Origin: Escherichia coli
Lineage (GTDB): Bacteria; Pseudomonadota; Gammaproteobacteria; Enterobacterales; Enterobacteriaceae
Assembly: GCF_016026235.1 (NCBI RefSeq)
Contig: NZ_CP065613.1
Reading direction: 5' to 3' (one strand)
Length of the DNA: 64,000 nucleotides
Part shown: one piece after another, positions 1 through 60,811 of the stretch
How the letters are laid out: each line of letters starts with the position of its first letter
Numbering within the stretch: position 1 is the first letter of the stretch
Translations under genes and position numbers: made by a program
The notes under the pieces: generated by a model
Databases searched by the model: none
Told to the model about the DNA's origin: nothing
Seen by the model: only the letters and a program-made list of their open reading frames with translations

Positions 1-132
1 TGCAATAATGAAATAAGAGCAAACGAAGAAACTTTCAGAATTAGTCCCGGCGGCGCAGAAAATTTTGCTATTCGCCTCGCAAGAACGGAGAGCCGTCGAT
101 TGACACTAAGGGCGGAGTGACATAATTTCAGG

Positions 133-282
133 AGTGAGGGTTAGGGAGAGGTTTCCCCCTCCCCCTGGTGTTCTTAGTAAGCCTGGAAGCTAATCACTAA
201 GAGTATCACCAGTATGATGACGTGCTTCATCATAACCCTTTCCTTATTAAAAGCCCTCTTCTCCGGGAGAGGCTTTCCCGTT
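133..282 (+). ncRNA. sibA: SibA-like antisense antitoxin sRNA (type I TA), approximate ends
   Basis: Sigma70-like promoter TTGACA (100-105) and CATAAT (121-126); transcript fully overlaps the opposite-strand 19-codon ibs ORF; ends at hairpin CCTCTTC-TCCG-GGGAGAGG with U-rich tail (~253-282); ~250-bp paralogous repeat of 1788-1990. Confidence 0.5.
174..233 (-). CDS. ibsA: Ibs-family small hydrophobic type I toxin (19 aa, MMKHVIILVILLVISFQAY)
   Basis: Own translation of minus strand; ATG-ATG start with GGAAAGGG SD-like sequence; embedded antisense inside the Sib repeat; resembles K-12 IbsA from memory. Confidence 0.55.
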   Translation of the reverse strand: MMKHVIILVILLVISFQAY

Positions 283-492
283 TCAGCGTCCCGCTGAAAT
301 CATCGGCTTACCTCCTTTCGCCCTGAATGCAGTCTATCGCTAACGCGTGAATAAAATAGTTTCCTCTGTGATTATTGCGTAACGACTCGCAAAGAATATT
401 TGCTGGCAGGATCGCAGACTACAAAGCCTACGGATTGACAATCTTATCGTGAAGGCATACTTTCAGGAGTGAGGGTAGAGCGGGGTTTCCCC

Positions 493-1787
493 CTGAGGAA
501 TCCCCAGAAAACAAGACAGGCATAGTGAGATGTGATCTAATTGATTGTGCTAACAATTTCAAGGAGATCACCACTATGCCTGCACGTTCATTATGCCAAA
601 ATTTCCTTAACAACATACTGGCCCCTTTGCATCTTTACCGTCAAAAATCACTGATTGACGCAACTAATGCTGTAATAAATGGCGCTTCCCTCACACTTAC
701 CAGTATCGGGCGTCATTTAACCGGTACGGCATCAGTTAAAAACAAAATAAAGCGGGTGGATCGACTGTTGGGGAATCGACATTTGCAAAATGAGGTTTCC
801 ACCATTTTTCAGCGAATTACCCAAAAGATTACGCGGGGAATGTCTCGTGTTGTGATACTCATTGACTGGAGTGCTTATCATGCCTCTCGTTTTCAGCTTT
901 TGCGGGCAAGCCTGGCATGTGACGGGCGTTCTTTACCGTTGATGAGTTGTGTCGTTCCATCATCACAGACAGCGAATGCAGATGTACATGAGCGTTTTCT
1001 GGAATCGCTTGCTGAGTGCTTTTCCCCCGGGACTGATGTCATTGTTATTACAGATGCCGGTTTTCAGGGGCGATGGTTCCAACAGCTCCGCTCCCGTGGC
1101 TGGACCTATATTTGCCGGGTACTGGGCAATCATTATTACAATGTTGGTAATGGCTGGGAAAAGGTGTCGGACTCAGGCACAAAAGCATCAACGACAGCAA
1201 TTTATTTAGGTGAAGGCCTGCTGGGTCGAGATAAAAATGCACAACATGAAGGGCATTTTTATCTTTATAAAAGTAAGCCTAAAGGTCGTAGATTTAAACG
1301 CTCGAAGGAAAGAGCAACCAGACCATCGGTGACGGCTAAAGCTCGTACTGCCGGGAAATCACCATGGTTTATTTTCACAAACAGTACTGAGTTCTCGCCA
1401 AAACAGGTAATGAAATTATACAGCCGTAGAATGCAAATTGAGCAAAATTTCAGGGATGAAAAAAATCCTCGCTGGGGATTTGGACTACGGTTTGGTGCCA
1501 GTCATTCATCCGGGCGGGTCACGGTATTGAGTCTGATCGCAACATTAGCCAGTATCATTATGTGGTTAAGCGGTTTCAGTCTGGAAAACAAAGGGATACA
1601 TCATAAATATCAGGCAAATACAGTGAAGCACAGGCGAGTCATCTCGTTATTAAAACTGGCGGAGAATGTGATTCGACATTCTCCACTCATACTAAACACA
1701 CTGTCACTTGACGCAGGGCTGAAAGTTCTACAGCAACGGTATACCAATATGATAATGGTTTACTAAATTTTCTGGGGATCCCTCAGG
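493..1787 (+). mobile_element. IS10-like IS4-family insertion sequence, copy 1 (1295 bp)
   Basis: Imperfect terminal inverted repeats CTGAGGAATCCCCAGAAAAC (left) and CCTGAGGGATCCCCAGAAAA (right, reverse complement); 9-bp target site duplication GGTTTCCCC at 484-492 and 1788-1796; single transposase ORF. Confidence 0.85.
525..1766 (+). CDS. IS4-family (IS10-like) DDE transposase
   Basis: ORF track 413 aa; motifs KRVDRLLGNRHLQNE and FQANTVKHRRV align with IS10 transposase (KRIDRLLGNRHL, FQANTVRNRNV) from memory; GTG start at 525, alternative ATG at 573 (MPARS) gives an IS10-like length of 397 aa. Confidence 0.8.
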   Translation: MRCDLIDCANNFKEITTMPARSLCQNFLNNILAPLHLYRQKSLIDATNAVINGASLTLTSIGRHLTGTASVKNKIKRVDRLLGNRHLQNEVSTIFQRITQKITRGMSRVVILIDWSAYHASRFQLLRASLACDGRSLPLMSCVVPSSQTANADVHERFLESLAECFSPGTDVIVITDAGFQGRWFQQLRSRGWTYICRVLGNHYYNVGNGWEKVSDSGTKASTTAIYLGEGLLGRDKNAQHEGHFYLYKSKPKGRRFKRSKERATRPSVTAKARTAGKSPWFIFTNSTEFSPKQVMKLYSRRMQIEQNFRDEKNPRWGFGLRFGASHSSGRVTVLSLIATLASIIMWLSGFSLENKGIHHKYQANTVKHRRVISLLKLAENVIRHSPLILNTLSLDAGLKVLQQRYTNMIMVY

Positions 1788-1935
1788 GGTTTCCCCCGCC
1801 CTGGTAGCCTTAGTAAGCTGGCCAGCTAATGACTAAGAGCACCACGATGATGAGTAGCTTCATCATGACCCTTTCCTTATTTATGGCCCCTTCCTCGGGA
1901 GGGGCTTTCCCGTTTCAGCGTCCCGCTGAAATCGG
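1788..1935 (+). ncRNA. sibB: SibB-like antitoxin sRNA, 3' portion only; promoter and first ~25 nt (435-492) separated by the IS at 493-1787
   Basis: Sequence 468-492 plus 1797-1935 aligns colinearly with the sibA repeat (133-282); promoter TTGACA 435-440 and CATACT 456-461; terminator hairpin CCCCTTCC-TCGG-GAGGGG ~1888-1925. Confidence 0.5.
1810..1866 (-). CDS. ibsB: Ibs-family small hydrophobic type I toxin (18 aa, MMKLLIIVVLLVISWPAY)
   Basis: Own translation of minus strand; same context as ibsA in the second Sib repeat; ORF intact. Confidence 0.55.
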   Translation of the reverse strand: MMKLLIIVVLLVISWPAY

Positions 1936-2073
1936 CGGCTTACCTCCTTTCGCCATGCAAGCAGTCTATCGCTAACGCGTAGATAAAATAGTTTCCTGTG
2001 TTATTACTGGATGCGTGCTCGCAAATGTGCCCGTCATTCAGACGATTCCCGACAGTGTTTCATAATTCCTCCA

Positions 2074-2091
2074 TTTTTCTCCCTTATTGGC
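2074..2091 (+). promoter_or_regulatory. Putative BaeR box upstream of mdtA
   Basis: TTTTTCTCCCTTATTGGC resembles the BaeR consensus TTTTTCTCCATDATTGGC (from memory); ~55 bp upstream of the mdtA start. Confidence 0.5.
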
Positions 2092-2144
2092 TGGCTACAC
2101 TAGTATCATTCCGCGAAACGTTTCAGGAAGAGAAACTCTTAACG

Positions 2145-3392
2145 ATGAAAGGCAGTTATAAATCCCGTTGGGTAATCGTAATCGTGGTGGTTATCGCCGC
2201 CATCGCCGCATTCTGGTTCTGGCAAGGCCGCAATGACTCCCAGAGTGCAGCCCCAGGGGCGACGAAACAAGCGCAGCAATCGCCAGCGGGTGGTCGCCGT
2301 GGTATGCGTTCCGGCCCATTAGCCCCGGTTCAGGCGGCGACCGCCGTAGAACAGGCAGTTCCGCGTTACCTCACCGGGCTTGGCACCATTATCGCCGCTA
2401 ATACTGTTACGGTGCGCAGCCGCGTGGACGGTCAACTGATGGCGTTACATTTCCAGGAAGGCCAGCAGGTCAAAGCAGGCGATTTACTGGCAGAAATTGA
2501 CCCCAGCCAGTTCAAAGTTGCATTAGCACAAACCCAGGGCCAACTGGCAAAAGATAAAGCCACGCTTGCTAACGCCCGCCGTGATCTGGCGCGTTATCAG
2601 CAACTGGCAAAAACCAATCTCGTCTCCCGTCAGGAGCTGGATGCCCAACAGGCGCTGGTCAGTGAAACCGAAGGCACCATTAAGGCTGATGAAGCAAGCG
2701 TCGCCAGCGCGCAGTTGCAACTCGACTGGAGCCGCATCACCGCACCAGTCGATGGTCGCGTTGGTCTCAAGCAGGTTGATGTTGGTAACCAAATCTCCAG
2801 TGGTGATACCACCGGAATTGTGGTGATCACCCAGACGCATCCTATCGATTTAGTCTTTACCCTGCCGGAAAGCGATATCGCTACTGTAGTGCAGGCGCAA
2901 AAAGCCGGAAAACCGCTGGTGGTAGAAGCCTGGGATCGCACCAATTCGAAGAAATTAAGTGAAGGCACGCTGTTAAGCCTCGATAACCAAATCGATGCCA
3001 CAACCGGTACGATTAAAGTGAAAGCACGCTTTAATAATCAGGATGATGCGCTGTTTCCCAATCAGTTTGTTAACGCGCGCATGTTAGTCGACACCGAACA
3101 AAACGCCGTAGTGATCCCAACAGCCGCCCTGCAAATGGGCAATGAAGGCCATTTTGTCTGGGTGCTGAATAGCGAAAACAAGGTCAGCAAACATCTGGTG
3201 ACGCCGGGCATTCAGGACAGTCAGAAAGTGGTGATCCGTGCAGGTATTTCTGCGGGCGATCGCGTGGTGACAGACGGCATTGATCGCCTGACCGAAGGGG
3301 CGAAAGTGGAAGTGGTGGAAGCCCAGAGCGCCACCACTCCGGAAGAGAAAGCCACCAGCCGCGAATACGCGAAAAAAGGAGCACGCTCCTGA
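2145..3392 (+). CDS. mdtA: Multidrug efflux RND membrane fusion protein MdtA (415 aa)
   Basis: ORF track 1998-3392; start trimmed to [10 protein letters not shown] (ATG 2145) by recognition of K-12 MdtA; 4-bp overlap with mdtB. Confidence 0.9.
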
Positions 3393-6300
3393 TGCAGGTG
3401 TTACCCCCGAGCAGCACAGGCGGCCCGTCGCGCCTGTTTATTATGCGTCCTGTCGCCACCACGCTGCTGATGGTGGCGATCTTACTCGCCGGGATTATCG
3501 GTTATCGCGCCCTGCCCGTTTCGGCGCTGCCGGAAGTGGACTATCCGACCATTCAGGTGGTCACGCTCTACCCAGGTGCCAGCCCGGATGTCATGACCTC
3601 TGCCGTTACCGCGCCGCTCGAACGCCAGTTCGGGCAGATGTCTGGCCTGAAACAGATGTCGTCGCAAAGTTCCGGCGGTGCGTCAGTTATCACTTTGCAG
3701 TTCCAGCTAACATTACCGCTCGATGTCGCCGAGCAGGAAGTGCAGGCCGCGATTAACGCTGCGACCAACTTGTTGCCGAGCGATCTGCCTAACCCGCCGG
3801 TTTACAGCAAAGTGAACCCGGCAGATCCGCCGATCATGACGCTCGCCGTCACCTCAACCGCCATGCCGATGACGCAAGTGGAAGATATGGTGGAAACCCG
3901 CGTCGCGCAGAAAATCTCGCAGATTTCCGGCGTCGGCCTGGTGACGCTTTCCGGCGGTCAGCGTCCGGCTGTTCGCGTCAAACTTAACGCTCAGGCGATT
4001 GCCGCCCTCGGCCTGACCAGCGAAACCGTGCGCACCGCCATTACCGGCGCTAACGTTAACTCGGCAAAAGGTAGCCTCGACGGCCCTTCCCGTGCGGTCA
4101 CGCTTTCCGCGAACGACCAGATGCAATCCGCCGAAGAGTATCGCCAGCTAATCATCGCCTACCAGAACGGCGCGCCAATTCGTCTGGGCGATGTCGCAAC
4201 TGTAGAGCAAGGTGCAGAAAACAGCTGGCTCGGCGCGTGGGCGAACAAAGAACAGGCCATTGTGATGAATGTTCAGCGCCAGCCCGGTGCTAACATTATC
4301 TCCACCGCCGACAGCATTCGGCAGATGCAGCCACAGCTCACTGAGAGTCTGCCGAAATCGGTGAAGGTGACAGTGCTTTCCGATCGCACCACCAATATCC
4401 GCGCATCCGTCGATGATACTCAGTTTGAATTGATGATGGCTATCGCGCTGGTAGTCATGATTATCTACCTGTTTTTGCGCAATATTCCGGCGACCATCAT
4501 TCCCGGTGTTGCTGTACCGCTGTCGTTAATCGGCACTTTCGCGGTTATGGTGTTTCTCGATTTTTCAATCAATAACCTGACACTGATGGCGTTAACTATC
4601 GCCACCGGATTCGTGGTCGATGACGCCATCGTGGTGATCGAAAACATTTCCCGCTATATCGAAAAAGGCGAAAAACCGTTGGCGGCGGCGCTCAAGGGCG
4701 CAGGTGAAATCGGCTTTACCATTATCTCGCTGACCTTCTCACTGATTGCGGTGTTGATCCCACTGCTGTTTATGGGCGATATCGTCGGGCGACTGTTCCG
4801 CGAATTTGCTATTACCCTGGCGGTAGCGATTTTGATCTCAGCGGTGGTGTCGCTGACCCTGACACCGATGATGTGCGCGCGGATGCTCAGCCAGGAGTCG
4901 TTGCGTAAACAGAACCGCTTCTCCCGTGCCTCGGAAAAAATGTTCGACAGGATAATCGCCGCCTATGGTCGTGGACTGGCGAAAGTGCTGAATCATCCGT
5001 GGCTGACCTTAAGCGTGGCACTCAGCACGCTGCTGCTTAGCGTGCTGCTGTGGGTGTTCATTCCGAAAGGTTTCTTCCCGGTACAGGACAATGGCATTAT
5101 TCAGGGCACTTTGCAGGCACCGCAATCCAGCTCCTTTGCCAATATGGCCCAGCGACAACGCCAGGTCGCGGACGTGATTTTGCAGGATCCGGCAGTGCAA
5201 AGCCTGACCTCATTTGTTGGCGTTGATGGCACTAACCCGTCGCTGAATAGTGCACGTTTACAAATCAACCTCAAACCGTTGGATGAACGTGATGATCGGG
5301 TGCAAAAAGTCATCGCCCGTCTGCAAACGGCGGTAGATAAAGTGCCGGGCGTCGATCTCTTCCTGCAACCAACGCAGGATCTGACTATTGATACTCAGGT
5401 CAGCCGCACCCAGTACCAGTTTACCTTGCAGGCCACCTCACTGGATGCGCTCAGTACCTGGGTGCCACAGTTGATGGAAAAACTCCAGCAACTGCCACAG
5501 CTTTCTGATGTCTCCAGCGACTGGCAGGACAAAGGGCTGGTGGCGTATGTCAATGTTGATCGCGACAGCGCCAGCCGTCTGGGGATCAGCATGGCGGATG
5601 TCGATAACGCCCTGTACAACGCGTTTGGTCAGCGACTGATTTCCACTATTTATACTCAGGCTAACCAGTATCGCGTGGTGCTGGAGCACAACACCGAAAT
5701 TACCCCGGGCCTCGCGGCGCTGGATACCATTCGCCTGACCAGTAGCGACGGCGGCGTGGTGCAGTTAAGCTCAATTGCCAAAGTTGAACAGCGTTTTGCG
5801 CCGCTTTCCATCAACCATCTGGATCAGTTCCCGGTAACGACCATCTCCTTTAACGTGCCGGATAACTATTCGCTGGGCGATGCGGTGCAGGCGATTATGG
5901 ACACCGAAAAGACGCTGAATCTGCCGGTGGATATCACCACGCAGTTCCAGGGCAGCACCCTCGCCTTCCAGTCGGCGCTGGGCAGCACTGTCTGGCTGAT
6001 TGTCGCGGCGGTGGTGGCGATGTATATCGTGCTCGGCATTCTGTACGAGAGCTTTATTCACCCGATCACCATTCTCTCGACGCTACCCACCGCAGGAGTC
6101 GGCGCACTGCTGGCGTTAATGATTGCCGGTAGCGAACTGGATGTGATTGCGATTATCGGCATTATTTTGCTGATCGGTATCGTGAAGAAGAACGCCATCA
6201 TGATGATCGACTTCGCGCTGGCTGCTGAGCGCGAGCAAGGCATGTCGCCGCGCGATGCCATCTACCAGGCTTGTCTGTTGCGTTTTCGTCCGATCCTGAT

Positions 6301-13281: not shown

Positions 13282-14707
13282 TAATGCCAGTCAGTTAAGC
13301 AACTGACTGGCTCTTTTTCGGGGCTGTGGGGTATTTCCAGGGCCTCTCCTTTACCACTCTCGGGAAGGCCCTTCCCCTTCTCGTCGGTAATTTCACAAGT
13401 TGTCCCATACTTGCAAGATCGCGCATCAGCTCCGGTATACGTCCCGGTGAAGCGCCCTGCAATGTCATCAGCATTCTCATCACCATTCCGCATGATTCTG
13501 AGAAACTCAGTTGATTCGGCCAGTAACCTTTCAGATGTTCCGCCATTTTAATCATCTGATATCTCACCAGATTATAAGCCAGTAAGACACCCCACAGCTC
13601 TTGCTCCACAAGCTCCGGCTTTTTACTTCTCAGCGTCAGCCTGCTCAGTTGCATCGTCTGTTTTATCTCCCTGTATCCCAGTTCGATTTCCCAGCGATGA
13701 CTGTACAGATCCGCCATTTCTCCTCCGGGGAAGCGCATGGCGTCCGTCATCGACGTCAGCAGATGGCAGACTTTTCCTTTGCGCGTCACGGTCAGCAGGC
13801 GGGCTGTCACTTCATTTCCCAGTCCCGGCCACTTTTTTCGTGCCTGCGGGCTGGTTTTCAGCTTCACCAGATGATCGCCTTTACCCAGTTTTCTGAGCTC
13901 TTCATATTGCGCTCCCTTTCTGAGAGGTATCATCCAGTGGCGGTGTTCTCCCGCCAGGCTCCAGGCATTTAACAGTCCCAGTGAGTAATAACCTTTATCC
14001 ATTAACGTCAGAGTGTTATCGCCGGTTTGTTCTATAAGTTGCTCAGCAAGCTCATTTTCGCTGTTCTTCATCGTGCCGAAGGCTGCAGCCGTCAGCAGAT
14101 GGCTGGTCAGTTCCATCTGGCAGACCATTTTGACCTGCGGGTAGAGCGCCGGGTTCCCGGCATGTGTCTGGCGGGGGAAGGCTGCATCGTTCTCTGGTGT
14201 ATCCGGTGTGCGCCAGAACACACCATCGATGGCCAGCAGGGTCAGGCCGCACCAGTGCGGATGCGGCGTGGCGTTATGCCAGAGCTGCGCTGTTTTCGTG
14301 AACACGCGGCGGACAGCCTCACTTCCCAGGCGCTGGCGGGCCTGAATAACGGCACTGGGGGCAACGAAGGGGCGATTGCCCGGCAGCATGATGTCCAGGC
14401 GATTCACAATCTGGTGAAGAGGTTCTTTACGCTCAAGCGCCATGCCAACAATACACCAGACCATCATTTCGAGGGGAAGACGGCGCTTGCGTAGCGTTAC
14501 AGTACCTGATTCGGCAAGGCAACGAGAGATGAGTTCGGGGTCGAGGTAATCCCCCAGAGAAGTCAGTGGGTTACGCAGAGAATCGTAACGGGATACCAGA
14601 TCAAGAGCCTGTCCAATGTGCATAAAAAAATCCGGAAACAAGTGAGCGTTTCCGGATTCTTACACAGCCACTGGATCGGTCAACTGATCCTTAACTGATC
14701 GGCATTA
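13282..14707 (-). mobile_element. IS4, copy 1 (1426 bp)
   Basis: Ends TAATGCCAGTCAGTTAAG...CTTAACTGATCGGCATTA; 12-bp target site duplication CACCTTTAGATG at 13270-13281 and 14708-14719; inserted between baeR and yegP. Confidence 0.9.
13295..14623 (-). CDS. insG: IS4 transposase InsG (442 aa)
   Basis: ORF track 448 aa; start trimmed to [10 protein letters not shown] by recognition of IS4 transposase. Confidence 0.9.
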
Positions 14708-17355: not shown

Positions 17356-17439
17356 TTAATTTCGATTATTTTTCCCGGATGGAAAATTCTTAGAAACCGA
17401 TCACATACAGCTGCATTTATTAAGGTTATCATCCGTTTC

Positions 17440-17526
17440 GCTGAAAAACATAACCCATAAAATGCTAGCTGTACCAGGAACCACCTCCTTAGCCTGTGTA
17501 ATCTCCCTTACACGGGCTTATTTTTT
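17440..17526 (+). ncRNA. cyaR: CyaR (RyeE) Hfq-dependent sRNA
   Basis: 87-nt match to remembered CyaR sequence GCUGAAAAACAUAACCCAUAAAAUGCUAGCUGUACCAGGAACCACCUCCUUAGCCUGUGUAAUCUCCCUUACACGGGCUUAUUUUUU, ending in a terminator hairpin and T-run. Confidence 0.85.
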
Positions 17527-21340: not shown

Positions 21341-22635
21341 CTGAGGAATCCCCAGAAAACAAGACAGGCATAGTGAGATGTGATCTAATTGATTGTGCTA
21401 ACAATTTCAAGGAGATCACCACTATGCCTGCACGTTCATTATGCCAAAATTTCCTTAACAATATACTGGCCCCTTTGCATCTTTACCGTCAAAAATCACT
21501 GATTGACGCAACTAATGCTGTAATAAATGGCGCTTCCCTCACACTTACCAGTATCGGGCGTCATTTAACCGGTACGGCATCAGTTAAAAACAAAATAAAG
21601 CGGGTGGATCGACTGTTGGGGAATCGACATTTGCAAAATGAGGTTTCCACCATTTTTCAGCGAATTACCCAAAAGATTACGCGGGGAATGTCTCGTGTTG
21701 TGATACTCATTGACTGGAGTGCTTATCATGCCTCTCGTTTTCAGCTTTTGCGGGCAAGCCTGGCATGTGACGGGCGTTCTTTACCGTTGATGAGTTGTGT
21801 CGTTCCATCATCACAGACAGCGAATGCAGATGTACATGAGCGTTTTCTGGAATCGCTTGCTGAGTGCTTTTCCCCCGGGACTGATGTCATTGTTATTACA
21901 GATGCCGGTTTTCAGGGGCGATGGTTCCAACAGCTCCGCTCCCGTGGCTGGACCTATATTTGCCGGGTACTGGGCAATCATTATTACAATGTTGGTAATG
22001 GCTGGGAAAAGGTGTCGGACTCAGGCACAAAAGCATCAACGACAGCAATTTATTTAGGTGAAGGCCTGCTGGGTCGAGATAAAAATGCACAACATGAAGG
22101 GCATTTTTATCTTTATAAAAGTAAGCCTAAAGGTCGTAGATTTAAACGCTCGAAGGAAAGAGCAACCAGACCATCGGTGACGGCTAAAGCTCGTACTGCC
22201 GGGAAATCACCATGGTTTATTTTCACAAACAGTACTGAGTTCTCGCCAAAACAGGTAATGAAATTATACAGCCGTAGAATGCAAATTGAGCAAAATTTCA
22301 GGGATGAAAAAAATCCTCGCTGGGGATTTGGACTACGGTTTGGTGCCAGTCATTCATCCGGGCGGGTCACGGTATTGAGTCTGATCGCAACATTAGCCAG
22401 TATCATTATGTGGTTAAGCGGTTTCAGCCTGGAAAACAAAGGGATACATCATAAATATCAGGCAAATACAGTGAAGCACAGGCGAGTCATCTCGTTATTA
22501 AAACTGGCGGAGAATGTGATTCGACATTCTCCACTCATACTAAACACACTGTCACTTGACGCAGGGCTGAAAGTTCTACAGCAACGGTATACCAATATGA
22601 TAATGGTTTACTAAATTTTCTGGGGATCCCTCAGG
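21341..22635 (+). mobile_element. IS10-like IS4-family insertion sequence, copy 2 (1295 bp)
   Basis: Same TIRs as copy 1; 9-bp target site duplication GATAAACTC at 21332-21340 and 22636-22644; sits in the gatC-gatD junction. Confidence 0.85.
21373..22614 (+). CDS. IS4-family (IS10-like) DDE transposase
   Basis: Protein identical to copy 1 in the ORF track; at least two synonymous DNA differences from copy 1. Confidence 0.8.
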   Translation: MRCDLIDCANNFKEITTMPARSLCQNFLNNILAPLHLYRQKSLIDATNAVINGASLTLTSIGRHLTGTASVKNKIKRVDRLLGNRHLQNEVSTIFQRITQKITRGMSRVVILIDWSAYHASRFQLLRASLACDGRSLPLMSCVVPSSQTANADVHERFLESLAECFSPGTDVIVITDAGFQGRWFQQLRSRGWTYICRVLGNHYYNVGNGWEKVSDSGTKASTTAIYLGEGLLGRDKNAQHEGHFYLYKSKPKGRRFKRSKERATRPSVTAKARTAGKSPWFIFTNSTEFSPKQVMKLYSRRMQIEQNFRDEKNPRWGFGLRFGASHSSGRVTVLSLIATLASIIMWLSGFSLENKGIHHKYQANTVKHRRVISLLKLAENVIRHSPLILNTLSLDAGLKVLQQRYTNMIMVY

Positions 22636-35044: not shown

Positions 35045-35185
35045 CTCCTGCCATAACGTGAAGAAGCAATGACCTGGTGGTCCGTGACTTCCCTACGCTG
35101 GCATTATCCAGATCAGGTAATACGGGTATTTCTCAGCCTTCACGCAGAAGGGCACCCCGAGTCGTTTGGTTGCGATGATAAATCG
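35045..35185 (-). promoter_or_regulatory. TPP (thi-box) riboswitch in the thiM leader
   Basis: Minus strand contains CTGGGGTGCCCTTCTGCGTGAAGGCTGAGAAATACCCGTATCACCTGATCTGGATAATGCCAGCGTAGGGAA, the canonical thiM riboswitch core as I recall it. Confidence 0.7.
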
Positions 35186-49688: not shown

Positions 49689-52600
49689 CTTACAAGGATG
49701 CCGTTAATTGGCTGGCAAATAACCCGCGCCATGCCGCCGCTGGGCTACTGCCTTTGGCGCTGGGCAAACCGTGCCAAAATCGGGAATATGCCCGCCAGGC
49801 ACTCCTCCTGCTAGTGAAATTAAACCAGCGAGAAACGATTGAGGAAATCGCCCAAGGATATAATCAACCTGATGTTTTAGCTGCGCTGGCAACATTATTT
49901 GATAGCGACCCACTGGAAGAATATCCTGCAAAAATCGCCCCACTGCCCGGCTTTTATCAGTTCCCCTTATGGCGCAGACCTCGGCTTAAAAGTAACAACC
50001 TGCCTCTGCCAGATGACGCTATGCGCCACCTCGGCACAATGTTGAGCTTTCCACGCGACATTACCTCCTACGCTGGGCTGGCGATCATCAAAGAGACCTT
50101 CACCCGCGAATCACTGGCTGACTTTGGCTGGGATCTCTACACGGCATGGACAGAAGCAGGCGCACCCGCAAAAGAGAACTGGGCATTTACCTCGCTGGGG
50201 ATTCTAGGCAATGACGACACCGCGCGTAAACTAACCCCGCTCATCCGCGCCTGGCCGGGTGAATCCCAGCATAAACGCGCGGTTTACGGGCTGGATGTGT
50301 TAGCCAGTATCGGTAGCGACATTGCGCTTATGTTGCTTAATGGCATTGCGCAAAAGATTAAATTCGTTGCATTACAGGAACATGCCAGCGACAGAATCAA
50401 TATGGTCGCCGAAAATCGCGGACTGACAATGGCCGAACTGGAAGATCGCCTGGCACCGGATTTAGGGCTTGATAGCAGTGGCTCGCTGACACTGGATTTC
50501 GGCCCACGTCAATTTACCGTTGGTTTTGACGAAACTTTAAAACCTGTAGTGCGCGACGCAAACGGCAAAGTCCTGAAAGATTTGCCCAAACCAAACCAGA
50601 GCGATGAAAAAACTCAGGCAACTGACGCGGTTAATCTCTTCAAACAGTTGAAAAAAGATGTACGCGCCATAGCCAGCCAGCAGATTGATCGTCTGGAACA
50701 GGCTATGTGCCAGCGCAGACGCTGGACGGCAGAGCAGTTCCGCCTGTTTCTGGTGGAGCATCCGCTGGTACGTCACTTAACCCGACGGCTGTTATGGGGG
50801 GTTTATAACGATGAAAACGCCCTTATCACCTGTTTTCGCGTGGCAGAAGACAGCACTTACAGCGATGCGCAGGATGAGTTATTCACGCTGCCAGCAGGAA
50901 ACATCGGTATACCGCATGTGCTGGAAATCCCCCCTGAATCCGCCGCTGCATTCAGGCAAATTTACGTTGATTACGAACTGCTTCCCCCTTTCCAACAGCT
51001 CGAACGTGGTAGTTACCACCTTGCTGATAACGAACGTAATGTCCATGAATTGTCACGCTGGGACGGACGTCTCTGCCAGGCCGGACGCATTGTCGGGCTG
51101 GAACGCAGAGGCTGGCAACGTCTGGAAGAAAGCGGCAGCGTCTATGCGATGCGCAAATCTACCCCTTATGGTGCTCTCGAACTTGAAACAGAACCTTTTT
51201 CATTAATTTATGGCGAAACGGGGTATAGCGACCTGCTGCCTGTCGAAAGCGTAAAAATCACCGCCCCTTATGATCGCTATGGTAAACAATCCTCACCCAC
51301 TTTCTCCGTGCTCGACGACATCACCGCCAGCGAGCTGATTAACGACATTGAATCACTGTTTGATTAAAAGGATTTAACAATGAAAACCTATATTTATCAG
51401 GACGAAAAATCACATAAATTCTGGGCGGTGGAGCAGCAGAGAAACGAGCTGCATATCAACTGGGGCAAAGTCGGCACTAACGGGCAAAGTCAGGTAAAAA
51501 GCTTTGCTGATGCTGCGGCGGCAGAAAAAGCGGAACTGAAGCTGATTGCGGAGAAGGTGAAGAAGGGGTATGTGGAGCAAGTAGACGCTAACGCTCACTC
51601 ACATGATGCCTCAGCAAAGAAAGTCCTAGTCACAGAGGAAAAAGCCTCAATAAATCACCAGGCAGCAACTAATGGTTTACCCTGGCTGGCAGACAACGAT
51701 CCCATTATTCTTCCCCCGAATATTGCCCGCCATGCCCTCAGCCACCGCCTTTGGCCGGGAGAGCCAGTAAAAAAACCAACCAAACCCGAGAAACAAAATT
51801 TAATTTCCCGATTGGCAAATCGTACTTATCATTATTATAAAAATCTGACTTTCGATTACAGCTCATGCTCTGATGAATGGGCTGATGCGATTAGCCAGGC
51901 AATCAGCTTAATTAAGGCCCAAAAGACTGAGATACCCGCGCGTACTATGGCGGTACTTACTTTTCTGGAAATATGTTTTTGTCAGGGCTGGAATGATGAA
52001 ACCTCATCCGAGTTGCTGGATGAAATTGTAAGCACCTTCGGTATCGAATACGCAACTGAAACTGTCATCTTCTGGTGGCAAATTGATTTCGATTTTGACT
52101 ATAAAGATGAACATTTGACTTTCTTTATTAATTATGCAGATAGCAGCAAGGACAGTTATAGAAGGAATAACGACAAATTTAGTTTACGTCTGCGTAAACA
52201 TTTATCACTAGCAGAAGAAGAAGTATGGCAAAATTGCATTGCAAAATTACTCGTTGCGTTACCAGATATATCACTCTATCGCCAACCGTTAATTGCCATT
52301 TTAATGCCAGAAATACCCGAAGTGGCCCATGAGATCGTACATCGTTTACACCAGGTCGCAGATGTTCCACAACTTGAAATGTTGAAACTGGTAGCGACAG
52401 ATCCATTCACGCTCGAAATACTGGAGAACTATCAATACATTGATGTATTTAACACCTATGGTGCCAGTTGGTCAGCTACGGTATTACGGGAACAAGGTAT
52501 AGCGGCACTGGCTCGCCTGGCTTCCTATGCTGAAGAAGATAATTGCGGTGACGTACTGAAATGTATTAATCATCCGTTGGCCATTACGGCACTCATCGAA

Positions 52601-52951
52601 GCCGCCGATACTAATAAACGCTGTTATGAACGACTAATAAAAAGTGCCGAAAATTTTCCTTCTGCCACGATAGCGGCATTAGCCGAAGCATTGGTAAAAA
52701 AAGATGATAAACGCAAACATACGTTGCTGGTTTCATTACTTAATGCAAATCCTTTATTGGTCGAAAAATTAGTCATCGGATTATCGTCGCAAGCGGCAAA
52801 TTTATTGCAACAATGTCAGCAATTGCTGAATAGTCGCAATGAAGATTTTGCAAACTCAGAAATTCTACCAATGGTACTAGTCTCGCCGCCCTGGGAAACT
52901 CAAAATAAAAATAACGACAACAGTCCTGTGGGTAAATACCCGGCGAAAATC

Positions 52952-54246
52952 CCTGAGGGATCCCCAGAAAATTTAGTAAACCATTATCATATTGGTATAC
53001 CGTTGCTGTAGAACTTTCAGCCCTGCGTCAAGTGACAGTGTGTTTAGTATGAGTGGAGAATGTCGAATCACATTCTCCGCCAGTTTTAATAACGAGATGA
53101 CTCGCCTGTGCTTCACTGTATTTGCCTGATATTTATGATGTATCCCTTTGTTTTCCAGGCTGAAACCGCTTAACCACATAATGATACTGGCTAATGTTGC
53201 GATCAGACTCAATACCGTGACCCGCCCGGATGAATGACTGGCACCAAACCGTAGTCCAAATCCCCAGCGAGGATTTTTTTCATCCCTGAAATTTTGCTCA
53301 ATTTGCATTCTACGGCTGTATAATTTCATTACCTGTTTTGGCGAGAACTCAGTACTGTTTGTGAAAATAAACCATGGTGATTTCCCGGCAGTACGAGCTT
53401 TAGCCGTCACCGATGGTCTGGTTGCTCTTTCCTTCGAGCGTTTAAATCTACGACCTTTAGGCTTACTTTTATAAAGATAAAAATGCCCTTCATGTTGTGC
53501 ATTTTTATCTCGACCCAGCAGGCCTTCACCTAAATAAATTGCTGTCGTTGATGCTTTTGTGCCTGAGTCCGACACCTTTTCCCAGCCATTACCAACATTG
53601 TAATAATGATTGCCCAGTACCCGGCAAATATAGGTCCAGCCACGGGAGCGGAGCTGTTGGAACCATCGCCCCTGAAAACCGGCATCTGTAATAACAATGA
53701 CATCAGTCCCGGGGGAAAAGCACTCAGCAAGCGATTCCAGAAAACGCTCATGTACATCTGCATTCGCTGTCTGTGATGATGGAACGACACAACTCATCAA
53801 CGGTAAAGAACGCCCGTCACATGCCAGGCTTGCCCGCAAAAGCTGAAAACGAGAGGCATGATAAGCACTCCAGTCAATGAGTATCACAACACGAGACATT
53901 CCCCGCGTAATCTTTTGGGTAATTCGCTGAAAAATGGTGGAAACCTCATTTTGCAAATGTCGATTCCCCAACAGTCGATCCACCCGCTTTATTTTGTTTT
54001 TAACTGATGCCGTACCGGTTAAATGACGCCCGATACTGGTAAGTGTGAGGGAAGCGCCATTTATTACAGCATTAGTTGCGTCAATCAGTGATTTTTGACG
54101 GTAAAGATGCAAAGGGGCCAGTATGTTGTTAAGGAAATTTTGGCATAATGAACGTGCAGGCATAGTGGTGATCTCCTTGAAATTGTTAGCACAATCAATT
54201 AGATCACATCTCACTATGCCTGTCTTGTTTTCTGGGGATTCCTCAG
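52952..54246 (-). mobile_element. IS10-like IS4-family insertion sequence, copy 3 (1295 bp, inverted)
   Basis: Same TIRs; 9-bp target site duplication GCGAAAATC at 52943-52951 and 54247-54255. Confidence 0.85.
52973..54214 (-). CDS. IS4-family (IS10-like) DDE transposase
   Basis: Same protein as copies 1 and 2; ORF-track entry 52973-54301 is extended N-terminally past the IS end, so it is trimmed to the position equivalent to the copy 1 start. Confidence 0.8.
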   Translation of the reverse strand: MRCDLIDCANNFKEITTMPARSLCQNFLNNILAPLHLYRQKSLIDATNAVINGASLTLTSIGRHLTGTASVKNKIKRVDRLLGNRHLQNEVSTIFQRITQKITRGMSRVVILIDWSAYHASRFQLLRASLACDGRSLPLMSCVVPSSQTANADVHERFLESLAECFSPGTDVIVITDAGFQGRWFQQLRSRGWTYICRVLGNHYYNVGNGWEKVSDSGTKASTTAIYLGEGLLGRDKNAQHEGHFYLYKSKPKGRRFKRSKERATRPSVTAKARTAGKSPWFIFTNSTEFSPKQVMKLYSRRMQIEQNFRDEKNPRWGFGLRFGASHSSGRVTVLSLIATLASIIMWLSGFSLENKGIHHKYQANTVKHRRVISLLKLAENVIRHSPLILNTLSLDAGLKVLQQRYTNMIMVY

Positions 54247-55725
54247 GCGAAAATCCCCCCTTTACCGTTGTTTTATCAACCTCCATTATGGACTCGCCCA
54301 AAACTCAAAAATAGCAGCAAGGTACTGCCAGATAACGCCCTCCTCCACCTCGGTGAAATGCTCCGCTTCCCTCAGGAAGAGGCCCTGTATCCGGGATTAT
54401 TGCAGGTGAAAGATGCCTGTACCGCCGACTCACTGGCTGAATTTGCCTGGGATCTGTTTACCGCCTGGCTGACTGCGGGCGCACCGTCGAAAGAGAGTTG
54501 GGCGTTCACTGCGTTAGGCGTTCTTGGTAACGATGACACCGCCCGCAAACTGACGCCATTAATACGCGCCTGGCCTGGTGAATCCCAGCATAAACGCGCC
54601 ACCGTTGGGTTGGATATTCTCGCCGCTATCGGTAGTGATATCGCCCTGATGCAGCTTAACGGTATTGCCCAGAAACTGAAATTCAAAGCATTACAGGAGC
54701 GGGCAAAAGAAAAAATTGCCGACATTGCCGAAAGCCGCGAACTCACGGTGGCAGAGCTTGAAGATCGGTTAGCACCGGATCTCGGTCTGGATGATAACGG
54801 TTCGTTGCTGCTGGATTTCGGCTCACGCCAGTTCACCGTCAGCTTTGATGAAACCTTAAAACCGTTTGTGCGTGATGTTTCTGGCAGCCGTCTGAAAGAC
54901 CTGCCCAAACCAAACAAAAGCGATGATGAATCACAGGCGAACGATGCTGTTAACCGCTACAAACTGCTGAAAAAAGATGCGCGTACCGTCGCCGCCCAGC
55001 AGGTAGCAAGGCTGGAATCCGCCATGTGCCTGCGTCGCCGCTGGTCACCGGAAAACTTTCAGCTCTTCCTGGTTGAGCATCCGCTAGTTCGCCACTTAAC
55101 CCGCCGTCTGATTTGGGGCGTTTATAGCGCCGAAAACCAGCTACTGGCCTGTTTCCGGGTAGCGGAAGATAACAGCTACAGCACCGCTGACGATGATCTT
55201 TTCACCCTGCCGGAAGGCGATATCTCTGTTGGTATTCCTCACGTTCTGGAAATATCACCGACGGATGCCGCCGCATTTGGGCAGCTTTTTGCCGACTACG
55301 AACTGCTACCGCCGTTCCGCCAACTCGACCGTAACAGTTACGCCCTGACAGAAACCGAGCGCAATGCCAGCGAACTGACCCGCTGGGCAGGCAGAAAATG
55401 CCCGAGCGGTCGGGTAATGGGGCTGGCGAATAAAGGCTGGATAAAGGGCGAACCACAGGATGGAGGCTGGATCGGCTGGATGATCAAACCTCTGGGCCGC
55501 TGGTCGTTAATCATGGAAATCGATGAAGGCTTTGCGGTAGGCATGTCGCCAGCCGAACTGAGTGCCGAGCAACTCTTAAGCAAGCTGTGGCTATGGGAAG
55601 GCAAAGCGGAAAGCTATGGCTGGGGGAGTAATTCAACACAGGAAGCGCAGCTCTCCGTACTCGATGCCATCACCGCCAGCGAGCTAATTAACGATATTGA
55701 AGCCCTGTTTGAATAAGGAAAGAGC

Positions 55726-60120: not shown

Positions 60121-60203
60121 GTTGGTACGAAATGTTGCACAATCAGCAAGTTAGCGTCACTGTAGTAAATAAAAGAACCTGCCTCACCAGCAGGTTTTTT
60201 TAT
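60121..60203 (+). ncRNA. orzO: OrzO-like antitoxin sRNA (~83 nt)
   Basis: Predicted TSS 7 nt after the -10; 5' end GUUGGUACGAAAUGUUGC is complementary (one G-U) to the zor 5' UTR at 59955-59972; ends at terminator CCTGCCTCACCAGCAGG plus T7. Confidence 0.65.
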
Positions 60204-60728: not shown

Positions 60729-60811
60729 GTTGGAACACGATGTTGCACAGGCTGTGGTGTTAGGCCTGAAAATAGTAAATAAAAGAACCTGCCTCACCAG
60801 CAGGTTTTTTT
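60729..60811 (+). ncRNA. orzP: OrzP-like antitoxin sRNA (~83 nt)
   Basis: 5' end GUUGGAACACGAUGUUGCAC pairs with the unit-2 UTR at 60563-60582 (one mismatch); terminator CCTGCCTCACCAGCAGG plus T7. Confidence 0.65.

What the first reader, a model, noticed from the sequence alone, without database searches (positions are those of the whole stretch)
435..1935. IS10-like element inserted inside the SibB antitoxin sRNA while the ibsB toxin ORF stays intact
The two ~250-bp Sib/Ibs repeats are colinear except that repeat 2 is split ~25 nt after its predicted TSS by a 1295-bp IS with a clean 9-bp TSD (GGTTTCCCC). The part of SibB antisense to ibsB (1810-1866) is now 1.3 kb away from the sibB promoter, yet the ibsB ORF, its SD and its upstream region are undisturbed. 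Either ibsB is silenced some other way (cross-repression by SibA, read-through or outward transcription from the IS, weak ibsB promoter) or this strain tolerates an unrepressed toxin gene.
Basis: partly seen in the sequence, partly recalled or inferred. Interest (0 to 1): 0.7.

Follow-up and report, generated by a model that had tools for sequence, protein, structure and literature searches.

The report
ISEc60 insertion splitting the SibB antitoxin
A known mobile element (ISEc60, a relative of IS10) has landed in its preferred hairpin target inside the small antitoxin RNA gene sibB of an E. coli, cutting the antitoxin off from its promoter while leaving the tiny toxin gene ibsB intact; the same event recurs in several invasive E. 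coli genomes, so it is a real but fairly ordinary hot-spot insertion whose effect on the toxin is still untested.

Summary
Window 1-2200 is the E. coli yegL-mdtA intergenic Sib/Ibs array. It holds an intact sibA/ibsA unit and a sibB/ibsB unit interrupted after SibB nucleotide +22 by a complete ISEc60 (493-1786). ISEc60 belongs to the IS4 family. Its transposase is 36% identical to that of IS10A, and its terminal 13 bp match IS10A at 12 of 13 positions.

Removing the IS and one copy of the duplication restores the K-12 arrangement without gaps. The ibsB ORF and 164 nt around it are identical to an allele in an IS-free strain.

The IS is there because the loop of the SibB 5' GC hairpin fits ISEc60's target preference (GGRWWWWCCC). 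The same nucleotide is hit in five of the six complete E. coli genomes that carry full-length ISEc60 on the chromosome. One hit is in the opposite orientation, and one genome has two units hit.

The severed 22 nt are dispensable in SibC. TRD1, TRD2 and the terminator remain downstream, with no strong terminator between them and the sibB promoter.

How ibsB stays harmless is untested. My best guess (about 0.45) is continued antisense transcription from read-through or IS promoters. The main rival is low or disabled ibsB expression. Cross-repression by SibA is disfavoured. Interest is low to moderate.

The parts
136..279 (+). SibA antitoxin sRNA, intact. The ibsA ORF lies antisense at 174-233 (MMKHVIILVILLVISFQAY).
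   Evidence: 144/144 identical to K-12 sibA. Rfam SIB_RNA 149.5 bits. ibsA translation.
435..463 (+). sibB promoter: -35 TTGACA at 435-440, 17-nt spacer, -10 TACTTT at 458-463. It now points into the IS.
   Evidence: Hexamer scan. Identical to the K-12 and LD27-1 sibB promoters.
471..492 (+). SibB 5' stub (+1 to +22), carrying the left half of the 5' GC hairpin.
   Evidence: K-12 sibB annotation mapped onto the window.
483..492 (.). Left copy of the target-site duplication GGGTTTCCCC (9 or 10 bp).
493..1786 (+). ISEc60, a complete copy. Left inverted repeat CTGAGGAATCCCCAGAAAA; right inverted repeat (reverse complement) CTGAGGGATCCCCAGAAAA, with a GATC only at the right end.
   Evidence: 99.9% identical to copies annotated ISEc60. 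Terminal 13 bp are 12/13 identical to IS10A at each end.
517..582 (+). Fold-back hairpin: 517-527 pairs with 572-582, and 532-538 pairs with 564-570. It buries the transposase SD (561-566) and AUG (576-578) in transcripts entering from outside.
   Evidence: Inverted repeat I10. RNA fold of 471-640 gives -56.8 kcal/mol, z = -4.8. Function inferred by analogy with IS10 fold-back inhibition.
576..1766 (+). ISEc60 transposase ORF (396 aa), with a DDE domain and a Y-x2-R-x3-E-x6-K signature (YSRRMQIEQNFRDEK).
   Evidence: NCBIfam NF033591, 360.5 bits. Pfam PF01609. Translation. Protein identical to the RMDEC332 transposase annotated WP_001111632.1.
590..598 (-). pOUT-like extended -10 (TGGCATAAT), reading outward across the left end. 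The predicted start is near 583, antisense to the transposase start codon.
   Evidence: Consensus match only. Geometry as in IS10 pOUT (own knowledge).
1659..1686 (-). Terminator-like hairpin inside the IS. It is the first such site an ibsB transcript would meet after leaving its normal 3' region.
   Evidence: 11-bp stem followed by CAGTTTTAAT.
1727..1756 (+). Candidate outward-facing promoter near the IS right end (TCTACA-18-GATAAT). The predicted start near 1763 would give a SibB-like RNA of about 148 nt.
   Evidence: 9/12 consensus match. Unverified; about 3 such matches are expected by chance in the 2.2 kb scanned.
1787..1796 (.). Right copy of the target-site duplication GGGTTTCCCC.
1797..1910 (+). 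SibB remnant (+23 to +136): TRD1 equivalent about 1816-1838, TRD2 equivalent about 1866-1885, intrinsic terminator about 1885-1910.
   Evidence: Rfam hit 1749-1881. Alignment to the K-12 Sib RNAs and TRD mapping. Predicted local fold is unchanged when embedded in longer transcripts.
1810..1866 (-). ibsB toxin ORF, intact (18 aa, MMKLLIIVVLLVISWPAY). The SD lies in 1868-1880.
   Evidence: Translation. The same allele occurs in IS-free strain LD27-1.
2145..3392 (+). mdtA, the downstream neighbour that fixes the synteny.

Best explanation
What is shown: the region is the second unit (sibB/ibsB) of the E. coli yegL-mdtA Sib/Ibs type I toxin-antitoxin array, interrupted by a full-length ISEc60.

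Why the IS is there (strongly supported): the loop of SibB's 5' GC hairpin (GCGGGGTTTCCCCCGC) matches ISEc60's preferred target, GGRWWWWCCC set between a G-run and a C-run. The site is therefore a transposition hot spot, and the insertion does not need to have been selected for its effect on the toxin.

What the insertion changes: it removes only SibB nucleotides 1-22 from the rest of the RNA. Both target-recognition domains and the SibB terminator stay downstream of the IS.

How ibsB most likely stays silent (inferred, not shown): the remnant is still transcribed. In the window's orientation the strong sibB promoter and the transposase gene both read toward the remnant. No strong terminator intervenes, and the first good terminator is SibB's own. 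Long chimeric RNAs would therefore end in a SibB tail that folds like the native one. These could start at the sibB promoter, at the transposase promoter, or at a possible promoter at 1727-1756. A fold-back hairpin should stop these read-through RNAs from making transposase. In the opposite orientation (FDAARGOS_943), a pOUT-like promoter at the IS left end would play the same role.
For: Identity and anatomy.

Hot spot:
- The identical junction occurs in CFSAN029787 (two units), RMDEC332, RMDEC364 and VL46.
- The same nucleotide is hit in inverted orientation in FDAARGOS_943.
- Only six complete genomes carry full-length ISEc60 on the chromosome, and five of them carry it in sibB.
- mdtA-side flanks differ by 7-14 positions in 630 nt among same-orientation carriers.
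- Twelve target sites share GGRWWWWCCC, and 8 of 12 are GC-hairpin loops.
- Two other hairpins, the gatC-gatD and CS1-fimbrial intergenic regions, are also hit in both orientations in different strains.

Remnant competence:
- SibC +1 to +29 is dispensable, and TRD1 alone suffices for repression (Han 2010, PMC2943612).
- The TRD1 hairpin, the single-stranded TRD2 and the terminator are predicted unchanged inside longer transcripts.

Read-through:
- The arrangement is co-directional, with only two weak terminator-like hits on the + strand of the IS.
- A fold-back structure forms at z = -4.8.
- Candidate promoters are found by consensus.

No decay of the toxin:
- The W15 and KWI ibs alleles next to the IS are 100% identical over 164 nt to alleles in IS-free genomes.
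- The F15 allele encodes the same peptide as K-12-type IS-free strains.
- The Y15 unit, split in CFSAN029787, is identical to the intact unit in VL46. These two strains show 0 differences over more than 1.5 kb apart from the extra IS.
Against: - No expression data of any kind. Every promoter call is a consensus match (9/12, or an extended -10), at about the density expected by chance.
- If transposase translation is blocked by the fold-back, the 1.2 kb of untranslated read-through RNA is a likely Rho substrate, so little transcription may reach the remnant.
- In FDAARGOS_943 the sibB promoter is 3.9 kb away, across an inverted ISEc60 and an IS66. Read-through cannot be the general answer there, and a second, orientation-specific promoter must be invoked.
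- A single orientation-independent explanation, that ibsB is simply not expressed enough to matter, is more parsimonious.
Confidence: 0.55

Rival explanations
1. SibB is effectively lost, but ibsB is harmless at its native expression level. Either its promoter is intrinsically weak, or the IS has also damaged the toxin mRNA. The IS sits 23 nt past the ibsB stop codon, within the region that by analogy with ibsC forms the 3' end of the toxin mRNA. That mRNA now runs about 130-150 nt into the IS.
For: - This explanation does not depend on orientation. It covers the inverted, IS66-disrupted copy in FDAARGOS_943 and the double hit in CFSAN029787 without extra assumptions.
- The ibsC mRNA extends opposite SibC +1, so the insertion at +22 falls inside the ibsB transcription unit.
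- The first minus-strand terminator-like site after the junction is at 1659-1686.
- A/B-type units lack the sequence that carries the mapped ibsC and ibsD promoters. No match of 8/12 or better to the sigma-70 consensus lies within 270 nt upstream of ibsB.
- Precedent recalled from memory: K-12 hokA, hokC and hokE loci carry IS150 or IS186 just downstream of the hok ORFs and are considered inactivated (Pedersen and Gerdes 1999).
Against: - Ibs toxins are very potent. Basal plasmid expression of ibsC is lethal without SibC.
- Sib-deficient cells other than sibA are reported lethal when the cognate ibs is expressed (Han 2010 citing Fozo 2008).
- The same promoter scan would also miss the mapped ibsD promoter (7/12), so absence of a hit says little.
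- The ibs ORFs remain perfectly conserved.
Confidence: 0.33
2. ibsB is repressed in trans by a non-cognate Sib RNA: SibA next door, or SibC, SibD or SibE elsewhere in the genome.
For: - SibA is intact 335 nt upstream.
- The window's W15-type TRD1 is about as close to SibA (18/23) as to K-12 SibB (19/23).
- ibsA is known to be recognised by non-cognate Sibs.
Against: - SibC and SibD share 19/23 positions in TRD1, yet SibD neither binds nor represses ibsC. SibA matches the window's SibB at only 18/23 in TRD1 and 16/20 in TRD2.
- K-12 SibC, SibD and SibE match at only 13-15/23 in TRD1.
- The literature reports cognate-only repression except for ibsA.
Confidence: 0.07
3. The IbsB peptide next to the IS is a non-toxic variant (W15 here), so losing the antitoxin costs nothing.
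For: - The window allele differs from K-12 IbsB at residue 15 (F to W).
- C-terminal residues matter for IbsC toxicity (review PMC8309996).
Against: - The W15 allele occurs with an intact cognate Sib unit in IS-free strains.
- Other carriers have the K-12 F15 allele, the common KWI allele (at least 99% identical in 405 records) or the Y15 allele. No carrier has a frameshift, a stop or a lost start codon.
- The variable codons coincide with TRD1. This is what is expected for specificity divergence between tandem copies, not for decay.
Confidence: 0.04

Closest known systems
sibB/ibsB of E. coli K-12 (Sib/Ibs type I toxin-antitoxin, Rfam RF00113)
   Same: - Same locus (yegL-mdtA).
- Same promoter, 5' hairpin and terminator.
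- The reconstituted SibB is 135-136 nt and differs from K-12 SibB at only a few positions, clustered in TRD1.
- An 18-aa Ibs ORF lies antisense.
   Different: - The sRNA gene is split after +22 by 1.3 kb of IS.
- The Ibs allele has W instead of F at residue 15.
- Some relatives carry three units rather than two.
IS10 (Tn10), IS4 family
   Same: - DDE transposase with the YREK signature, 36% identical to the IS10A transposase over 93% of its length.
- The terminal 13 bp are 12/13 identical at each end, with GATC only in the right ('inside'-type) end.
- A fold-back structure covers the start codon, and there is an outward extended -10 just inside the left end.
- Target selection appears to follow a symmetric consensus.
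   Different: - A distinct element: ISEc60, 1294-1295 bp against 1328-1329 bp.
- The transposase start lies at IS position 84, against 107.
- The target consensus is GGRWWWWCCC, not NGCTNAGCN.
- The apparent duplication is 10 nt, against 9.
- The regulatory features are predicted only.
Chromosomal hok/sok loci of K-12 interrupted by IS150 or IS186 (Pedersen and Gerdes 1999; recalled from memory, not re-read here)
   Same: An IS sits just outside an intact type I toxin ORF, within the regulatory RNA region of the locus. The strain lives with it.
   Different: In the hok case the IS is thought to inactivate the toxin mRNA's 3' fold-back element. Here the IS mainly severs the antitoxin from its promoter. 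Whether the toxin mRNA is also disabled is unknown.
Palindrome-targeting insertion sequences such as IS1397 and ISKpn1 in REP/BIME loops (own knowledge)
   Same: Insertion into the loop of short GC-rich intergenic hairpins, giving recurrent independent hits at the same sites.
   Different: Those elements belong to the IS3 family and target a defined repeat family. ISEc60 belongs to the IS4 family, and its preference may be for a sequence consensus that happens to occur in hairpin loops. Four of 12 sites are poor hairpins.

Membership tests
Sib/Ibs type I toxin-antitoxin (RF00113) | Match to the SIB_RNA covariance model above the gathering score | tested here: met
   1749-1881 scores 72.3 bits against a gathering score of 56. 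The 5' part of the model is not truly matched. The stub at 435-611 scores 27.8 bits.
Sib/Ibs type I toxin-antitoxin (RF00113) | An 18-19 aa hydrophobic Ibs ORF with an SD, fully antisense to the sRNA | tested here: met
   1810-1866 (-) reads MMKLLIIVVLLVISWPAY. PGAP annotates the same ORF as an Ibs family toxin in related genomes.
Sib/Ibs type I toxin-antitoxin (RF00113) | The sRNA is transcribed from its own constitutive promoter, contiguous with the antisense region | tested here: not met
   The promoter (435-463) and nucleotides +1 to +22 are separated from +23 to +136 by 1304 nt.
Sib/Ibs type I toxin-antitoxin (RF00113) | [quoted passage not shown] | tested here: met
   Alignment to SibC coordinates. 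Predicted fold.
Sib/Ibs type I toxin-antitoxin (RF00113) | The toxin is toxic and is repressed by the cognate sRNA | not testable with these tools
   Needs expression and growth assays.
IS4 family, IS10 group: ISEc60 | DDE transposase of the IS4 type with the Y-x2-R-x3-E-x6-K signature | tested here: met
   NF033591 scores 360.5 bits against a cut-off of 152. PF01609. YSRRMQIEQNFRDEK is read in the translation.
IS4 family, IS10 group: ISEc60 | Near-identity to elements catalogued as ISEc60 | tested here: met
   98.7-99.9% nucleotide identity over 1294 bp to copies annotated 'IS4-like element ISEc60 family transposase'.
IS4 family, IS10 group: ISEc60 | Terminal inverted repeats of the IS10 type | tested here: met
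   CTGAGGAATCCCC and CTGAGGGATCCCC compared with IS10A CTGAAGAATCCCC and CTGAAGGATCCCC.
IS4 family, IS10 group: ISEc60 | 9-bp target-site duplication | tested here: inconclusive
   Every copy shows a 10-nt duplication (11 nt in two copies). This fits either a 10-bp duplication or 9 bp plus one ambiguous terminal base. Comparing the two orientations at three sites does not settle it.
IS10-type self-regulation (fold-back inhibition, RNA-OUT, dam control) | An RNA structure that sequesters the transposase start site in transcripts entering from outside | tested here: met
   Predicted only: 517-527 pairs with 572-582 and 532-538 with 564-570, z = -4.8.
IS10-type self-regulation (fold-back inhibition, RNA-OUT, dam control) | An outward promoter producing an antisense RNA over the transposase start | tested here: inconclusive
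   Extended -10 TGGCATAAT at 590-598 (-). This is a consensus match only.

The most novel reading that the evidence does not exclude
In the carrier lineages, the SibB antisense region would be made only from ISEc60-borne or ISEc60-traversing transcription. In one orientation it would be the 3' tail of the transposase mRNA or the product of a right-end promoter. In the other it would come from pOUT read-out. Repression of the IbsB toxin would then depend on the IS. The IS copy would become hard to lose or silence, and toxin release would be coupled to IS regulation.
Probability: 0.12. Interest if true: 0.6.

Novelty: new member of a known kind. Interest (0 to 1): 0.3.

Why it matters
If the remnant is not transcribed, these enteroinvasive E. 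coli lineages are natural experiments. They would show that a chromosomal Ibs toxin gene can lose its cognate antitoxin without being lethal. That bears on the long-running question of whether chromosomal type I toxin-antitoxin systems do anything at native expression levels.

If the remnant is transcribed from the IS, it is an example of an IS taking over antitoxin supply.

CFSAN029787 and VL46 are identical at this locus except for an extra ISEc60 in unit 3. They form a ready-made near-isogenic pair for testing either idea.

Separately, ISEc60's strong preference for GGRWWWWCCC hairpin loops predicts where it will land as it spreads from pINV-type plasmids into chromosomes.

Tried and rejected
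- Fozo et al. 2008, the primary Sib/Ibs paper, is not held. Its findings are taken second-hand from Han 2010 and two reviews.
- Literature searches for ISEc60 and for IS disruption of sib found nothing relevant.
- Whole-duplex energies (SibA vs ibsB -179 kcal/mol, cognate -280 kcal/mol) were computed. I set them aside because recognition depends on TRD loops, not on full duplexes.
- Simple sigma-70 scans cannot decide whether ibsB has an active promoter. They would also miss the experimentally mapped ibsD promoter.
- I considered that the W15 and KWI ibs changes were post-insertion inactivating mutations. This was rejected because both alleles are identical to alleles in IS-free genomes.
- I considered that the flanking palindrome was part of the IS inverted repeats (inverted repeat I1). 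This was rejected because other copies have unrelated flanks.
- One flank comparison (FDAARGOS_943 left flank) failed through an indexing error and is not used.
- The complete-genome set already answered the recurrence question.
Full report
**1. What is in the sequence**

Window 1-2200 is the intergenic region between yegL and mdtA of Escherichia coli. In K-12 this region carries two tandem Sib/Ibs type I toxin-antitoxin units.

- Rfam finds a full SIB_RNA at 100-248 (149.5 bits), a 5'-truncated one at 1749-1881 (72.3 bits, gathering score 56) and a weak promoter-plus-stub match at 435-611.
- SibA (136-279) is 144/144 identical to K-12.
- By the K-12 annotation, SibB +1 corresponds to window 471.
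- After +22 comes an element bounded by CTGAGG...CCTCAG (493-1786, 1294 bp), flanked by the direct repeat GGGTTTCCCC (483-492 and 1787-1796).
- Removing the element and one repeat gives a sequence colinear, without gaps, with K-12 (98.8%) and strain 720632 (98.6%) over 996 nt. This is therefore a clean transposition event.
- The ibsB ORF (1810-1866, minus strand, MMKLLIIVVLLVISWPAY) is intact.

**2. Identity of the element**

- The 396-aa ORF (576-1766) is an IS4-family DDE transposase. It scores 360.5 bits against NF033591 and matches PF01609. Its sequence contains YSRRMQIEQNFRDEK, which fits Y-x2-R-x3-E-x6-K.
- The DNA is 99.9% identical to copies that RefSeq annotates as ISEc60.
- The protein is 36% identical to IS10A and ISVsa5 transposases over 93% of its length.
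- The terminal 13 bp match IS10A at 12/13 positions at each end. As in IS10, a GATC occurs only in the right end.

'IS10-like' is therefore a fair description.

RNA from 471 to 640 is predicted to fold so that 517-527 pairs with 572-582 and 532-538 pairs with 564-570. This buries the transposase SD and AUG (-56.8 kcal/mol, z = -4.8). It is the arrangement known from IS10 as fold-back inhibition of transcripts that enter from outside (established knowledge, Davis, Simons and Kleckner 1985; not tested here).

An extended -10 (TGGCATAAT, 590-598, minus strand) sits where IS10 has pOUT. This is a consensus match only.

**3. Why the IS is at this spot**

The exact sibB-ISEc60 junction is present in four complete E. 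coli genomes: CFSAN029787, RMDEC332, RMDEC364 and VL46.

- CFSAN029787 is a pINV-carrying enteroinvasive O96:H19/ST99 strain. The three Thai stool isolates carry large plasmids of similar size, and the RMDEC332 plasmid is titled pINV. Their pathotype was not checked further.
- CFSAN029787 has three Sib/Ibs units, and two of them are split at the same nucleotide.
- FDAARGOS_943 has ISEc60 at the same nucleotide in the opposite orientation, itself later broken by an IS66-family element.
- Only six complete genomes in the collection have full-length ISEc60 on the chromosome, and five of them have it in sibB.
- Among same-orientation carriers, the mdtA-side flanks differ at 7-14 of 630 positions. 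This suggests several independent events. A single event followed by recombination cannot be excluded for those carriers, but it is excluded for the inverted copy.

I read the flanks of every ISEc60 copy I could reach, 12 sites in all.

- All sites show a 10-nt duplication with the pattern GGRWWWWCCC, preceded by G and followed by C.
- Eight of the 12 sites are loops of GC hairpins with predicted dG of -12 kcal/mol or lower.
- Two further hairpins are hit in both orientations in different strains: the gatC-gatD and CS1-fimbrial intergenic regions.

SibB's 5' hairpin loop (GCGGGG TTT CCCCCGC) is a near-perfect site. Target choice by the transposase is thus sufficient to explain the location. 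Nothing requires selection on the toxin-antitoxin system.

**4. What the insertion does to the antitoxin**

For SibC, Han et al. (PMC2943612) reported the following.

- Nucleotides +1 to +29 are dispensable.
- TRD1 (+46 to +68) alone is sufficient for repression.
- TRD2 (+99 to +115) works only with the P1 stem, formed with +1 to +8.
- Non-cognate SibD neither binds nor represses ibsC.

Mapped onto the window, TRD1 (about 1816-1838), TRD2 (about 1866-1885) and the terminator (about 1885-1910) all lie downstream of the IS. What is lost is the connection to the promoter (435-463), not the recognition sequences.

Predicted local folding of the remnant is the same in three contexts. In each, TRD1 is a hairpin, TRD2 is single-stranded and the terminator forms. 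The contexts are:

- native SibB;
- an RNA starting at 1763;
- the last 300 nt of a long read-through RNA.

**5. What the insertion does to the toxin**

- Window 1797-1960 is 100% identical to the third, IS-free unit of strain LD27-1, whose Sib promoter and 5' end are contiguous.
- The alleles beside the IS in other carriers are equally ordinary.
  - The F15 peptide is the K-12 type.
  - KWI is at least 99% identical in 405 records.
  - The Y15 unit is intact in VL46.
- CFSAN029787 and VL46 show no difference over more than 1.5 kb of this locus other than the extra IS.

There is thus no sign of toxin decay or compensatory change.

The variable codons (F, W or Y at residue 15) fall in the TRD1 region. 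This fits diversification of specificity between tandem copies.

In ibsC, the mRNA extends to opposite SibC +1 and starts 18 nt beyond SibC's 3' end. By analogy, the IS lies inside the ibsB transcription unit, 23 nt past the stop codon. The first terminator-like hairpin for an ibsB transcript is then at 1659-1686 within the IS.

The promoter of ibsB has not been mapped. The sequence that carries the ibsC, ibsD and ibsE promoters is not conserved in the A/B-type units, and my simple scans are too insensitive to decide.

**6. How ibsB is kept harmless**

This cannot be settled from sequence alone. I rank the options as follows.

- (a) Continued transcription of the remnant, about 0.45 on its own; the 0.55 given for the best explanation also covers the well-supported anatomy and hot-spot parts.
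  - In the window orientation, the sibB promoter and the transposase gene point toward the remnant.
  - The + strand of the IS has only two weak terminator-like hits, about the chance level.
  - The first good terminator is SibB's own.
  - A 9/12 promoter-like site at 1727-1756 would give an RNA of about 148 nt.
  - In the inverted FDAARGOS_943 copy, the retained left 760 nt include the pOUT-like promoter facing the remnant.
  - Against: there are no expression data, Rho may terminate the untranslated read-through RNA, and two different promoters are needed for the two orientations.
- (b) ibsB is too weakly expressed, or its mRNA is disabled by its new 3' end (about 0.33). This single explanation covers every carrier. 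It is in tension with the reported potency of Ibs toxins and with the reported lethality of Sib loss when the cognate ibs is expressed.
- (c) Cross-repression by SibA or other Sibs (about 0.07). SibA matches the window's SibB at 18/23 positions in TRD1 and 16/20 in TRD2. That is no better than the SibC/SibD pair (19/23), which does not cross-react.
- (d) A non-toxic allele (about 0.04). This is contradicted by the presence of the same alleles in intact units.

**7. Comparison with known systems, and verdict**

The locus is a member of the Sib/Ibs family by model match, synteny, ORF and terminator. It fails one defining feature: a promoter contiguous with the antisense region.

The element is ISEc60, a catalogued IS4-family element related to IS10. 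The apparent 10-nt duplication and the GGRWWWWCCC preference distinguish it from IS10. I could not check ISfinder, and only two papers in the library mention ISEc60, neither about targeting.

The closest precedent for an IS sitting next to an intact type I toxin gene is the set of K-12 hok loci with IS150 or IS186. That is recalled from memory.

Overall this is a real, cleanly defined but unsurprising event. A site-preferring IS, probably spreading from pINV-type plasmids, repeatedly hits a hairpin that happens to lie in an antitoxin gene. The open question, whether the toxin is still repressed, is worth one Northern blot. It is made easy by the CFSAN029787/VL46 pair, but it is not a new kind of system.

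Noticed in passing
window 21341-22634 (+); compare L010 (FDAARGOS_943): A second ISEc60 copy sits in the gatD-gatC intergenic GC hairpin, with duplication GGATAAACTC. FDAARGOS_943 has ISEc60 in the same hairpin in the opposite orientation. RMDEC332 has the site empty.
   Followed up: yes
window 52953-54246 (-), with ORFs 51380-53011 and 54268-55716: A third ISEc60 copy (duplication GGATTTTCGC on the minus strand) splits a long ORF just upstream of yehI. The two ORF halves are in frame once 1304 nt are removed, giving about 1010 aa. Only a weak NCBIfam hit was found for the N-terminal half.
   Followed up: partly
L011 (RMDEC332) vs L012 (VL46): The intergenic hairpin between a CS1-type fimbrial subunit gene and a TcfC-like usher gene carries ISEc60 in opposite orientations in two strains. 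This is another independent double hit.
   Followed up: yes
L002 (CFSAN029787), L003 (VL46), L008 (LD27-1) vs window 100-1935: The yegL-mdtA Sib/Ibs array has two or three units depending on strain. Ibs residue 15 varies (F, W or Y), and codons 4-5 vary (LL or WI). The residue-15 codons lie in the Sib TRD1 region, as expected if tandem copies diverge to keep cognate specificity.
   Followed up: partly
L002 vs L003: CFSAN029787 and VL46 are identical over more than 1.5 kb of this locus, except that unit 3 carries a second ISEc60 in CFSAN029787. The two ISEc60 copies are identical to each other. This is either a fresh hit or gene conversion from unit 2.
   Followed up: partly
window 1935 and 1925-1980 (-): The region upstream of ibsA and ibsB does not resemble the mapped ibsC, ibsD and ibsE promoter region. 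The window has A-to-C (ibs sense) at 1935 relative to K-12 and RMDEC332, 7 nt upstream of the start predicted by analogy with ibsC. The same base is present in IS-free strain LD27-1.
   Followed up: partly
window 13295-14641 (-): A 448-aa ORF lies between baeR and yegP, where strain NN5 has an IS4-family transposase annotated as frameshifted. Most E. coli genomes lack about 1.4 kb here. It is a different IS from ISEc60.
   Followed up: partly
window 60128-60201 and 60736-60811 (+): Two OrzO-P antitoxin RNA matches (88.8 and 99.9 bits) lie between yehK and yehL. This is the tandem zorO-orzO/zorP-orzP type I toxin-antitoxin pair, which is absent from K-12.
   Followed up: no
window 17438-17523 (+) and 35073-35169 (-): A CyaR sRNA and a TPP riboswitch, both ordinary matches above the gathering score.
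   Followed up: no
L007 (pCFSAN029787_01, 1514-4111): Two ISEc60 copies lie in direct tandem on the pINV plasmid, sharing one 10-nt repeat (GGGATTTACC) between them. That gives three copies of the repeat, which suggests the duplicated target is itself re-used as a target.
   Followed up: no
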